Shown here: positions 14,880 through 24,684 of the stretch, in pieces | Position numbering within the stretch: position 1 is the stretch's first letter | Layout of the letters: every line of letters starts with the position of its first letter | IMG/VR virus record: IMGVR_UViG_3300044719_000253 | Coordinates: 1 to 64,000 of that record | Length of the DNA stretch: 64,000 nucleotides | From: a virus | Lineage: Duplodnaviria; Caudoviricetes | Direction: 5' to 3' (one strand) | Position numbers and translations under genes: made by a program | Notes under the pieces: model-generated | Database searches by the model: none | Seen by the model: only the letters and a program-made list of their open reading frames with translations | Told to the model about the DNA's origin: nothing

Positions 14880-15554
14880 TTAATCCCAGTTAGAGGAAGC
14901 ACCGCCACCATCGAAAGTTCCGCCAGCGCCATCATAGTTGGGGGTGGTATCCGTAGCACTGGAAAAGTCCATCACCGCATTTACCGCATTGACGATTGCC
15001 AGCGAGTCGTCGAAATCGTTATTACGGCGCCGACGCGCCTCATCGTTTTCAGCTTCAATCCGTCGCAGACTGGCCAAAGCATCTTGTTCTTGTTGTCGGG
15101 CGGCCAGCAACGCTTGCTGTGCGTTCAGGCCATGGTGGTTGCTGACGGCCGGGGTGTTTTTAGCTTGCGCTAACGCGGCTTTGCGCATTGTATCCACCCC
15201 ACGTTGGGTTTTCTGAAAGCGTTCCACTTCCGGAGTGAGACCCAGATCCTTGGTCGTGATCGCGTGCGGATTACTGCGGTGCATCTGTTCCAGTTTCTCT
15301 AGCCACTGTTGCTTCGACTTGGCGTCATGGAGACGTTGTCGTGTGTCCGACTCATAAAACCCAGCAGTTGCGCGAGTACCAAGTTCTTCTAACGAACGCT
15401 GTTGCACTTCATGCAGATCCTTCGAAATACGGCGGATCGCTTCCGGATGCGATACGGACCGAGTCGTCTCGACACGAATCACTTGCGTGGTACTTTCAGC
15501 TTGAGTTGGTTGCTTCGTTTTGCCGCCAAACAGTTTCTTGAAAAAGTTCCACAT
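14880..15554 (-). CDS. hypothetical protein with Gly-rich C-terminal tail (GGTFDGGGASSNW)
   Basis: True start likely MWNFF at 15554 (GGAG SD); the upstream in-frame extension crosses a terminator motif. Confidence 0.7.
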   Translation of the reverse strand: MWNFFKKLFGGKTKQPTQAESTTQVIRVETTRSVSHPEAIRRISKDLHEVQQRSLEELGTRATAGFYESDTRQRLHDAKSKQQWLEKLEQMHRSNPHAITTKDLGLTPEVERFQKTQRGVDTMRKAALAQAKNTPAVSNHHGLNAQQALLAARQQEQDALASLRRIEAENDEARRRRNNDFDDSLAIVNAVNAVMDFSSATDTTPNYDGAGGTFDGGGASSNWD

Positions 15555-15572: not shown

Positions 15573-15941
15573 ACGGCATAACAAAAGGGTCAAGGGGTGA
15601 GACGCGGGGATGAGCATCGCGGTTACGCGCCACACCCACCCCCGTTCTCGATGACTCCAACAGCATCTGCCCGTCGTGGCCACAACGAACAAACCCATCA
15701 AAGGCTGCGCTCCCATGAAAGGGCCAACATCTTCCAAGCTCCGCTTTCGGTTACAAGGTCGAATCAGACAAAGCACAACTTGCCAACCGTCCGCCACGGT
15801 CCCTTGACAGGGGAACGCGCCAACGCACTGGCCGTACAGTTTCAGCACTCGTGTCAGGAATGCCACTAGACTCCCATCCAATCCCCTACCCTGTGGTCTG
15901 GGGGACGAGAGCAACGGCTACCACTGTTAAGTCCGTTGGTA
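15573..15941 (-). ncRNA. candidate ~370-nt structured ncRNA between hammerhead cleavage site and terminator
   Basis: Many short stems (15786-15800, 15800-15814, 15741-15750, 15594-15643); ends in hairpin plus TTATGCCGT; no SD-linked ORF. Confidence 0.5.
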
Positions 15942-16034
15942 TACATCCCACGCTGGAAATGTCGTGAGATGTTTCGAAGGGTTTGCAACCTTGCCTGTTA
16001 TCCAGGGGCCGACTTCCACGGCTCGTCAGTACCA
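15937..16034 (-). ncRNA. type I hammerhead ribozyme, variant with expanded stem II region
   Basis: Minus strand: TGGTA-CTGACGA-G...C-GAAAC-ATCTCACG-loop-CGTGGGAT-GT-A-TACCA; 5-bp stem I, 10-bp stem III, complete core, GUA cleavage site at 15942. Confidence 0.75.
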
Positions 16035-16262: not shown

Positions 16263-16337
16263 TGGTGCCGATAGAGTGAATCAAACACTCGACCTTACGC
16301 TTACAAGGCGTCTGCTCTGTCACTGAGCTATATCGGC
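16263..16337 (-). tRNA. trnT: tRNA-Thr(UGU)
   Basis: 7-bp acceptor GCCGATA/TATCGGC, anticodon loop CT-TGT-AA, encoded CCA; T loop reads TTTGATT. Confidence 0.9.
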
Positions 16338-16351
16338 ATGTTGTTTGCAAA

Positions 16352-16468
16352 ACGCGTACTGTTACGTCAAAGGAGATTCGAACTGCCATCTACTATTTCC
16401 CCGCGGACCAACACGGTCAACGCTTCGCTCCACTCATTAAGGATGGCTGCTTCTAAGCCAACCACATA
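16352..16468 (-). ncRNA. 23S rRNA H43-H44 (L11/GTPase-associated centre) mimic with internal insertion
   Basis: GGTTGGCTTAGAAGCAGCCATCCTTAATGAGT, then a ~60-nt insert, then GACGTAACAGTAC; matches recalled 23S GTTGGCTTAGAAGCAGCCATC..TTAAAGAGTGCGTAATAGC. Confidence 0.7.
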
Positions 16469-16485
16469 ATGCAAACAAAAAGTTG

Positions 16486-18610: not shown

Positions 18611-19111
18611 TTAGTCCTGACCGAGCTCAGCCTTCAGTTCTTTGGTGAACTGCGCGGAGGTGCCCGGTGCATGTTTAGGGGCATCGACCACGATGCCTTG
18701 GTTGGGGAGAACTTGGAACGCGCGATCGTCATAGAGTTCACGCATTGCCATGTCTTTGATGTTGGTGACTTCGAAGACTTGCCCGATGTGTTCTTGGCAC
18801 CAGGCTTCGATTGCTTGCCGTACCGCGGCGTTGATGCGATCGTCCGCATACGAAACCCGCGCGGTGAAGATCTTAACCCGCATCTCTTTGGCTTTCGCTT
18901 GGATGCGTTCGATCATGGCGGGGATCGGAGCCCCGATGTGCAAACAACCTTTCCATTCCTCGTGGATAGCGAGGGTTTTGTCAAGATCGAATCCACACCA
19001 CGGTTCCAGATATGGTTGTTGCTTGGCCAGCGCTTCGATGTAAGCCGGCGAATCGTTTTCTGCGCCTTCAGGCGTCTCCGACTCAGTGGCCAGATGTCGT
19101 TGCAGTTTCAT
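18611..19111 (-). CDS. HAD-family phosphatase (polynucleotide kinase 3'-phosphatase-like)
   Basis: Motif I FDLDKTLA, motif II IFTAR, C-terminal LYDDRA. Confidence 0.75.
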   Translation of the reverse strand: MKLQRHLATESETPEGAENDSPAYIEALAKQQPYLEPWCGFDLDKTLAIHEEWKGCLHIGAPIPAMIERIQAKAKEMRVKIFTARVSYADDRINAAVRQAIEAWCQEHIGQVFEVTNIKDMAMRELYDDRAFQVLPNQGIVVDAPKHAPGTSAQFTKELKAELGQD

Positions 19112-19144
19112 GGTATCTCTTTCAGTGGATATACATGCCAAGAC

Positions 19145-23019: not shown

Positions 23020-24684
23020 TTAGCCCATCAGAGCATCGTTGATGAGGTCATGCGTGATGGTGGGACGAGTTTGTTTCACCCCCATCATTTCGAACCGCAC
23101 CGGACCATGGTCCATCAACCCTTGCAACACTTGCATGAACCCGGCGGACAGGGTCAGGCGTGCAGCAGCATTGTGGTAGGTGATGGTGGTCTGGGCCAAC
23201 TGCTCTTGCGTTTTGGCACGGAACGAATCGTGTTCGGCGCGCTGCATTGGCGACGTGGCATAACCACGACTTTTCATCTGCGGAGCGAACTGACTGTCTT
23301 GATAACGGTTGGCATCGTCCACCGTTAAGTGACTGTGATTCAGCGCTGCGAGGAAATCAATCTCGCGGGTATCATGCTTGACGGCCTTGTCATCCTCGGT
23401 TTCCTGGAACGTGCCGATTTGGACGAGGGTGTTCGACAATGAGCCAATGCGCCATGGTTTCTGCATGAACGAAGCCCGGGTGAATTCCGCACCCATGTTG
23501 CCGTTCAACATCAACGATGCGCAATCCACGATCAGCGTAGTCACTTCGTGTTTTCCTTTCGCCGCTTCTGCCCACATCGAAAGCGTGTCATTGACGGTCG
23601 GGTTCATCAACATATCGAACGAGATCAAATGGCCACGGCCGATCATTTCGTTCAGCGTCTGAGCAAACCCCGGGGCACTAGGGTAGTCACCTTTAATGCG
23701 CTGCAATGCCGCAAAATCACTCCAAGTCTGCGTGCCATACATCGACTCGAACTTCTTACTCCAGAGCCCAGCCCGCATGAATGACGACACCATCAGTGCC
23801 GCTAGAGTCGGTGGCACCAATACCGTCCCGCACTGAATGACGTAGCGGATATCTGTCACCACGAATTCAGGGATGTAGTACGGCGTATCAGGCACCCACG
23901 GACGATCCGGCGCGGATTGTTCCGGCATATAGCGAAAATCGATATAACCGGAAACCGTGATGAGTTCGACCGGATCGAGCATCATGCTCAATGTGGATTG
24001 CCGACTACTGTGCGGGATCGATGACAACGTCAGCGTGATGTCGTTGCGCACCGGTTGACCAAAAACATCCGCGATGGGTGCCGCATCAAACGTATAATCG
24101 ACTTTGAACTCATTCCCAACACGTTCCGCTTCGACGAAATCGGGCAACATCTTCTTCACATCGGCGGCCTCTTTCGCGCTATGAATCCGCTCGAATTCCG
24201 CCCGGTTGTCTGCCGCATTCAACAGATGGTTGATGATCTCGCGGCACCTGGACAGATCGTTGTAATCGATCGGAAAAGGCTCGACTAACCCCAACGCGAT
24301 CGTCGATTTGGTATCCGACGCTTCCCCGAAGGCTTGGGCGATAATCGGCTGATTGTTGGGATGGTTCAGGTACTGGTAAATCGAATTGCCGAGGTTGACG
24401 TGTTTGATGATGACTTCGCTCTTATACGGCAGATACACCGACACGTACACCTTGCCAGTTTCCGGATCTGGGTAGCGCAGCAACAGCACCTTTTTCGGCG
24501 AGGGGACGTTGTGGTGGAAATCCAGTTCCAAGGTGGCGATCGCTACCTGGAAAGCGTTCTGGTATTCAGCGGCGAACCGTTGCGCCACCTCGAACAACAC
24601 GTTCAGGTCAGACGAGGCTTCATTGGATGACGTCGAGCCATAACGACGGAAATTGCGGTCAGCGCCAAAGAAATTGTTTTGCAT
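23020..24684 (-). CDS. phiKZ major capsid protein (gp120)-like divergent paralog
   Basis: DVFGQPVRNDI, VSGYIDF, YIPEFVVTDI, IVD.A..M.NG, DTREIDFLAALN match my recollection of phiKZ-like MCP motifs; shorter than the ~750-aa MCP. Confidence 0.5.
   Translation of the reverse strand: MQNNFFGADRNFRRYGSTSSNEASSDLNVLFEVAQRFAAEYQNAFQVAIATLELDFHHNVPSPKKVLLLRYPDPETGKVYVSVYLPYKSEVIIKHVNLGNSIYQYLNHPNNQPIIAQAFGEASDTKSTIALGLVEPFPIDYNDLSRCREIINHLLNAADNRAEFERIHSAKEAADVKKMLPDFVEAERVGNEFKVDYTFDAAPIADVFGQPVRNDITLTLSSIPHSSRQSTLSMMLDPVELITVSGYIDFRYMPEQSAPDRPWVPDTPYYIPEFVVTDIRYVIQCGTVLVPPTLAALMVSSFMRAGLWSKKFESMYGTQTWSDFAALQRIKGDYPSAPGFAQTLNEMIGRGHLISFDMLMNPTVNDTLSMWAEAAKGKHEVTTLIVDCASLMLNGNMGAEFTRASFMQKPWRIGSLSNTLVQIGTFQETEDDKAVKHDTREIDFLAALNHSHLTVDDANRYQDSQFAPQMKSRGYATSPMQRAEHDSFRAKTQEQLAQTTITYHNAAARLTLSAGFMQVLQGLMDHGPVRFEMMGVKQTRPTITHDLINDALMG

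What the first reader, a model, noticed from the sequence alone, without database searches (positions are those of the whole stretch)
15573..15941. ~370-nt RNA whose 5' end would be set by ribozyme cleavage
From the predicted cleavage site (after 15942) to the TTATGCCGT terminator the sequence is G-rich and stem-dense, with no SD-linked ORF. Hammerhead cleavage would give it a precise 5'-OH end, which resists RNase E and is a substrate for RtcB-type ligation. I recognise no known family.
Basis: partly seen in the sequence, partly recalled or inferred. Interest (0 to 1): 0.65.

Follow-up and report, generated by a model that had tools for sequence, protein, structure and literature searches.

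The report
Ribozyme-released structured RNA of giant phages
A giant bacterial virus encodes a self-cutting RNA that trims the front of a roughly 350-base, intricately folded non-coding RNA found only in related giant phages; the RNA matches no catalogued family and its job is unknown, though its shape suggests copies stick together as in other large phage RNAs.

Summary
Confirmed and extended. The window is a 226-kb nucleus-forming jumbo phage. On the minus strand a type I hammerhead (16034-15937) is predicted to cut after A15942, three bases before the first helix of a conserved RNA. Three related phages keep hammerhead plus RNA. The fold is supported by covariation (95.5% of cells paired, 24 of 67 pairs with double changes, four sequences). 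It has two pseudoknots, a variable domain, a long hairpin with a palindromic loop and a terminal hairpin. Cultured Burkholderia phage FLC9 and one relative carry a divergent version behind a tRNA, with no hammerhead. There the kissing loops have different but still complementary sequences and the loop stays palindromic. The 120-codon in-frame extension is closed in all three homologs. No Rfam, rRNA or group I match. RtcB ligation is unsupported, and TTATGCCGT may be a late promoter rather than the terminator. Best reading: a free-standing ornate RNA that self-associates like OLE, ROOL and GOLLD. Function, expression and cleavage are untested. This scan reported the same family earlier from another genome (e1-5409590).

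The parts
15937..16034 (-). Type I hammerhead ribozyme; stem II is one G-C pair plus a 45-nt three-hairpin insertion; predicted cut between 15942 and 15941
   Evidence: core kept in G004, G002 and L120, with a compensatory stem I change, four different stem III sequences and a GUA or GUC triplet
15573..15941 (-). Conserved structured non-coding RNA (3' cleavage product); 3' end somewhere between 15599 and 15573
15912..15938 (-). P0 hairpin (15938-15933 with 15917-15912); its loop holds the invariant GACU and ACAGU
   Evidence: different 6-bp stem around the same loop motifs in FLC9 and L142
15836..15927 (-). Pseudoknot 1: ACAGU (15927-15923) with ACUGU (15840-15836), enclosing hairpins P2 and P3
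   Evidence: invariant in four close homologs; ACGGU with ACCGU in FLC9 and L142
15805..15856 (-). Kissing loops: UGACA (15856-15852, loop of P3) with UGUCA (15809-15805, loop of P4)
   Evidence: three different complementary sequence sets of 5-6 Watson-Crick pairs across six homologs
15704..15781 (-). AA plus helix P5 (15779-15773 with 15710-15704) enclosing a variable domain; whole element 67-85 nt in close homologs, 198 and 293 nt in FLC9 type
15655..15703 (-). Long hairpin P6 capped by the palindrome UGGCCA (15682-15677); candidate intermolecular kissing loop
   Evidence: 8 of 13 pairs with double changes; loop GGCC in five homologs, CCGG in FLC9
15599..15649 (-). Terminal GC-rich hairpin, candidate terminator or 3' stabiliser
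15573..15581 (-). TTATGCCGT motif: genome-wide post-hairpin element, terminator tail and/or late promoter of the next gene
   Evidence: 15 TTATGCCG sites; 9 have a preceding 45-mer folding at -15 kcal/mol or better, against 15% of random sites; TATG late promoter
14880..15554 (-). Downstream 224-aa gene of unknown function with its own Shine-Dalgarno; context, not part of the RNA
16263..16337 (-). tRNA-Thr(UGU), upstream in the same RNA island; context

Best explanation
It is a free-standing, ornate non-coding RNA that closes the tRNA/ncRNA operon of a group of Burkholderia-phage-FLC9-related nucleus-forming phages. It is transcribed in a long precursor (inferred). In this lineage the hammerhead cuts it free and leaves a 5'-OH end three bases before the first helix (inferred from conserved core and position). 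In the FLC9 lineage, which has no hammerhead here, tRNA 3' processing probably does the job. It folds into a compact 5' domain locked by two pseudoknots, carries a variable domain and a long hairpin, and ends at a hairpin (fold supported by covariation). The palindromic loop most likely pairs with the same loop of a second copy, giving dimers or larger assemblies as in OLE and GOLLD (inferred). The most likely role is a stable scaffold or decoy that binds phage or host factors during infection (inferred from context only; partner unknown).
For: Covariation: 95.5% of cells paired, 24 of 67 pairs with double changes, 0 of 500 shuffles reach it, slid controls 36-44% paired; RNAalifold recovers the nested helices on its own. 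Kissing loops stay complementary in three different sequence sets. Loop palindrome switches GGCC to CCGG, the signature used for intermolecular bridges in OLE and GOLLD (bioRxiv 10.1101/2024.12.08.627333). Hammerhead stays attached to the RNA while the DNA upstream is rearranged: ~210-nt insert in G004, tRNA plus ORF in G002. Downstream gene is unrelated in FLC9 type, and a homologous downstream gene has a different 215 nt upstream in L119. Reading frame not conserved.
Against: Only six sequences in two clades; related sequences can beat the shuffle control, and the structure was derived from these sequences. FLC9-type homology is weak by model score alone (10-12 bits, E 0.15-0.31) and rests on motif order, position and features outside the model. 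All four hammerhead-bearing copies lie before related genes, so a leader role is not excluded. A 4-nt palindromic loop can also arise from a long self-complementary hairpin. The scaffold or decoy role has no direct evidence.
Confidence: 0.55

Rival explanations
1. It is a processed 5' leader that stays on the downstream mRNA by read-through and stabilises it or controls its translation.
For: All four hammerhead-type copies precede related genes, and the Shine-Dalgarno lies 10 nt past TTATGCCGT. The U-tract after the terminal hairpin is short. Hammerheads flank genes in prophages and were proposed to cut transcripts into mRNAs (PMC3088659).
Against: A terminal hairpin plus the genome-wide motif separates RNA and gene in all six copies. 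The gene is unrelated in FLC9 type. L119 has the gene behind different sequence. No conserved pairing to the Shine-Dalgarno is seen.
Confidence: 0.15
2. It is a catalytic or ligand-binding RNA with a new fold; the invariant single-stranded bases around the double pseudoknot form the active site, loosely recalling group I intron P3, P4 and P7 strands in permuted order.
For: Invariant GACU, AAAC, AAGUUGU and GCAGC across two clades while stems drift. GCAGC followed by a stacked hairpin resembles the group I Q element seen in this phage's own intron.
Against: No hit of RF00028 or other ribozyme families. Profiles of the RNA do not match the phage's two group I introns. The P7-like pairing is lost in L142, and there is no G-binding bulge, J8/7 motif or splice site.
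Confidence: 0.15
3. It imitates a piece of the translation machinery (ribosomal RNA domain or tRNA-like shape) and acts as a decoy for host defence nucleases or translation factors.
For: It sits in an island with tRNAs and a 23S GTPase-centre look-alike at about 16350-16470, which my control search confirms (E 7.8e-6).
Against: Four profiles of this RNA find nothing in E. coli 16S or 23S rRNA at E below 3, while the control is found. Shape mimicry without sequence likeness remains possible.
Confidence: 0.1
4. It is coding: a 120-codon N-terminal extension of the downstream protein, or otherwise unselected spacer.
For: Frame open for 121 codons in this genome, about 1% in shuffles.
Against: Closed by 3-7 stops in three homologs, with frame-breaking indels; no family match for the peptide; homologous proteins start at the same Met; strong covariation.
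Confidence: 0.03

Closest known systems
ROOL and GOLLD RNAs (large ornate phage and prophage RNAs)
   Same: Phage-encoded, next to tRNA islands, multiple pseudoknots and kissing loops, variable inserted domains, unknown function.
   Different: No Rfam match; smaller (336-369 nt here, about 480-600 in FLC9 type, against over 800 for many GOLLD); different fold; 5' end set by a hammerhead.
OLE RNA loop L9.3 and GOLLD loop L21a symmetric kissing loops
   Same: Hairpin loop whose sequence switches between palindromes (OLE or GOLLD: GGCC to GAUC or AGCU; here GGCC to CCGG).
   Different: Multimer formation is shown by cryo-EM there and only inferred here; OLE is a bacterial membrane-linked RNP with no sequence match.
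Type I hammerhead ribozyme (closest model RAGATH-1-hammerhead, RF03152)
   Same: Full catalytic core, stems I and III, NUH triplet; one-pair stem II has an active precedent (PMC3088659).
   Different: 45-46-nt three-hairpin insertion in stem II; below gathering score; fixed to a large ncRNA.
Theta ribozymes (HDV-like, phage tRNA-associated; PMC10879173)
   Same: Self-cleaving RNA used for RNA processing in a phage tRNA cluster (abstract only).
   Different: Different ribozyme class; they sit next to tRNAs, whereas this one defines the start of a large ncRNA.
Group I intron core (RF00028)
   Same: Short motif echoes of the P, Q and R elements.
   Different: Order permuted, no P7 G-site, no splice sites, no model or profile match.

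Membership tests
Hammerhead ribozyme, type I | CUGANGA and GAAA core with NUH triplet | tested here: met
   present in four phages, triplet GUA or GUC
Hammerhead ribozyme, type I | Stems I and III pair, stem I open | tested here: met
   compensatory stem I change in G002; four different stem III sequences
Hammerhead ribozyme, type I | Stem II closed by G10.1-C11.1 | tested here: inconclusive
   one G-C pair, then a three-hairpin insertion of 45-46 nt; active one-pair precedent
Hammerhead ribozyme, type I | Self-cleavage | not testable with these tools
   needs in vitro transcription
ROOL / GOLLD / OLE | Match to the family covariance model | tested here: not met
   no hit up to E 10 for the window, three homologs or FLC9
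ROOL / GOLLD | Phage location beside tRNA genes | tested here: met
   tRNAs upstream in all six loci
ROOL / GOLLD / OLE | RNA-only homo-multimer | not testable with these tools
   palindromic loop is only a hint
Group I intron | Core in order P3-P4-P6-P7 with G-binding site and splice sites | tested here: not met
   RF00028 finds the phage's real introns but not this locus; no profile match
tRNA / tmRNA | Cloverleaf or tmRNA ends with tag frame | tested here: not met
   ARAGORN and Rfam find none in 15573-15941
rRNA domain mimic | Sequence likeness to a 16S or 23S domain | tested here: not met
   no nhmmer hit at E below 3; positive control found

The most novel reading that the evidence does not exclude
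A new class of functional phage RNA, with its own catalytic or binding core in a double pseudoknot, that assembles into multimers through a palindromic loop and whose release is gated by a hammerhead carrying a regulatory three-hairpin domain: an RNA-only maturation cascade in a nucleus-forming phage.
Probability: 0.15. Interest if true: 0.85.

Novelty: new variant of a known kind. Interest (0 to 1): 0.58.

Why it matters
The biological roles of natural hammerheads in phages and of large ornate phage RNAs are both open questions. Here a hammerhead has an evident substrate: it sets the 5' end of a conserved RNA, and a sister lineage appears to reach the same end through tRNA processing. The RNA is small enough for in vitro work and cryo-EM, and a cultured phage (Burkholderia phage FLC9, LC667451.1, about 127660-128140) carries a homolog, so expression, ends, partners and knock-down phenotype can be tested.

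Tried and rejected
BLAST of the region and two homologs against cultured phages: only tRNA or chance hits. Direct locus searches with the neighbouring proteins: nothing; relatives were reached through the RNA polymerase subunit. Metagenome pattern scan: 72 chance hits and one duplicate of G002. Bacterial and archaeal genomes: no exact match to either lineage's pattern. Model R1 found nothing in RP12, Xoo-sp14, pEa_SNUABM_37 or RSF1, but the same fast search also missed the FLC9 copy, so absence there is not shown. The E 0.84 hit at FLC9 305.6 kb lies in a CDS and was rejected. The FLC9 hammerhead at 182.5 kb is a separate type III-like element. Idea that the FLC9 3' domain equals the element upstream of the hammerhead (permuted RNA): no profile match either way. 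Pairing of the 5' end with TTATGCCGT, seen in the single-sequence fold: rejected, since it competes with conserved P0, is weak in G002 and uses a genome-wide motif. Permuted group I core and rRNA mimicry: no support. No paper naming the TTATGCCGT motif or this RNA was found.

Full report
Setting. The window is the first 64 kb of a 226-kb virus record that encodes a nuclear shell protein, PhuZ, a tail sheath and phiKZ-type RNA polymerase. The nearest cultured relative by RNA polymerase subunit is Burkholderia phage FLC9 at 54.6%. The finding lies on the minus strand at the downstream end of an RNA island that includes tRNA-Thr at 16337-16263.

The ribozyme. A type I hammerhead spans 16034-15937, with full core, a 5-bp stem I, a long stem III and a GUA triplet, so the cut falls after A15942. 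It is the only such match in the genome. Rfam scores it below threshold, probably because stem II is one G-C pair followed by 45 nt in three hairpins. Three related phages keep it: G004, G002 and L120. Stem I shows a compensatory change, stem III has four different sequences, and the triplet is GUA or GUC. This points to selection on the fold. A one-pair stem II has an active precedent (PMC3088659). Activity was not tested.

The downstream RNA is real as a conserved fold. The single sequence folds only modestly better than shuffles (z -2.12). The four-sequence alignment is far more telling. RNAalifold recovers P0, P2, P3, P4, P5 and P6. With two pseudoknots added, 95.5% of cells pair and 24 of 67 pairs have changes on both sides; slid controls pair 36-44%. 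Caveats: four related sequences, and the structure was derived from them. From the 5' end: hairpin P0 begins three bases after the cut; its loop pairs with ACUGU at 15840-15836; the loop of P3 kisses the loop of P4; AA and helix P5 enclose a variable domain; a long hairpin carries UGGCCA; a GC-rich hairpin ends the RNA.

A second lineage. Burkholderia phage FLC9 has an unannotated gap behind its last tRNA, and IMG/VR contig L142 has the same element behind a tRNA. Model R1 scores them weakly (10-12 bits), so homology rests on other evidence. The motifs come in the same order, and that chain occurs once in the 226-kb genome and once in each locus (pattern loosened after seeing FLC9). Pseudoknot 1 shows a double change. 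The kissing loops have wholly different sequences yet keep six Watson-Crick pairs. Beyond the span of the model lie GCAGC and a long hairpin with a palindromic loop, CCGG in FLC9 and GGCC in L142. These copies have no hammerhead, a larger variable domain, an extra conserved 3' domain and an unrelated downstream gene. So the RNA, not the ribozyme or the gene, is the constant.

Coding rival. The frame of the 224-aa downstream gene is open 121 codons upstream here, but has 5, 7 and 3 stops in the homologs, and homologous proteins start at the same Met. It is not a conserved extension.

Ends. The 5' end by hammerhead cleavage is inferred from position: the ribozyme stays fixed to the RNA while upstream DNA is rearranged. 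The 3' end is uncertain by about 25 nt. TTATGCCG occurs 15 times in the genome, 9 of them after a strong hairpin against 15% of random sites. It contains TATG, which is the phiKZ late-promoter consensus at the start site (PMC4666361), so the unit may be a terminator hairpin followed by the next promoter. RtcB was not found in this genome or in two complete relatives, and no 3' ribozyme exists to give a cyclic phosphate, so circularisation has no support. Host RtcB acting in trans is not excluded.

How it most likely works. Shown by comparison: conserved fold, conserved ribozyme, non-coding. Inferred: transcription in the tRNA operon, release by self-cleavage or by tRNA processing, stability from a 5'-OH end and a terminal hairpin, and self-association through the palindromic loop. 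A switch between palindromes in a loop is the signature reported for intermolecular bridges in OLE and GOLLD (bioRxiv 10.1101/2024.12.08.627333). A scaffold or decoy role during infection is my best guess (0.55); leader (0.15), catalytic or ligand-binding RNA (0.15) and translation-machinery mimic (0.10) remain open.

Comparison. It works like ROOL and GOLLD in setting and style but is not a member: no Rfam model matches the window, three homologs or FLC9. It is not a group I intron and shows no rRNA likeness where a control does. Exact patterns are absent from 185,579 prokaryote genomes. I found no paper describing it.

Verdict. A real, uncatalogued structured RNA family of a small jumbo-phage group, with a ribozyme-defined 5' end in one lineage. 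New variant of a known kind; interest 0.58. The scan reported the same family before from another genome (e1-5409590).

Noticed in passing
window 16150-16045 (minus): A separate conserved ~110-nt element closed by a covarying 9-bp stem, with an internal GRGUC/GACUY pairing that covaries; in G002 a tRNA and an ORF separate it from the hammerhead, in L120 an ORF separates it from the tRNA trailer. No Rfam match.
   Followed up: partly
window 16022-15976 (minus): The hammerhead stem II insertion is three hairpins whose first and third loops are conserved and look like T-loops, giving a tRNA-like or interdigitated T-loop shape; the middle hairpin varies with covariation.
   Followed up: partly
window 19740-19145 (minus); L037 2320-2415; L038 near 4349: The other large RNA of this island also starts with a hairpin followed by a CAAGUU(G/A)UGC motif, and its G004 copy scored weakly against model R1 (E 0.03): possibly a shared module.
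   Followed up: partly
window 16470-16350 (minus): Matches 23S rRNA 1057-1133 of E. coli (E 7.8e-6) yet Rfam E-value scans miss it, so Rfam negatives do not exclude rRNA-domain mimics.
   Followed up: partly
window 23020-24684 (minus): A divergent second copy of the nuclear shell protein family (phrog_4795, E 4e-22), besides the main one at genome 117093-119246.
   Followed up: no
genome G000 162152-162477 (minus): A second group I intron-like match (RF00028, 43 bits) besides the one at 115413-115687.
   Followed up: no
L137 1570-1490 (minus; FLC9 about 182.5 kb): A compact type III-like hammerhead between gp221, which has a KxDG nucleotidyltransferase-like motif, and a hairpin-TTATGCCGT; not annotated and missed by Rfam. 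G004 has a similar gene near its RNA; none found in G000.
   Followed up: partly
L119 1-215: A close relative has a different structured sequence with a T-arm-like hairpin in the slot before the same downstream gene; no Rfam family. The contig is too short to see more.
   Followed up: partly
L139 5775-5690 (minus); L142 about 9010-8925 (minus): FLC9-type copies carry an extra, highly conserved ~85-nt 3' domain absent from the hammerhead lineage; it may be a separate RNA.
   Followed up: partly
window 18611-19141 (minus): HAD-like protein with a weak polynucleotide kinase family hit (E 0.002) inside the RNA island, kept in G004; could heal cleaved RNA ends.
   Followed up: no
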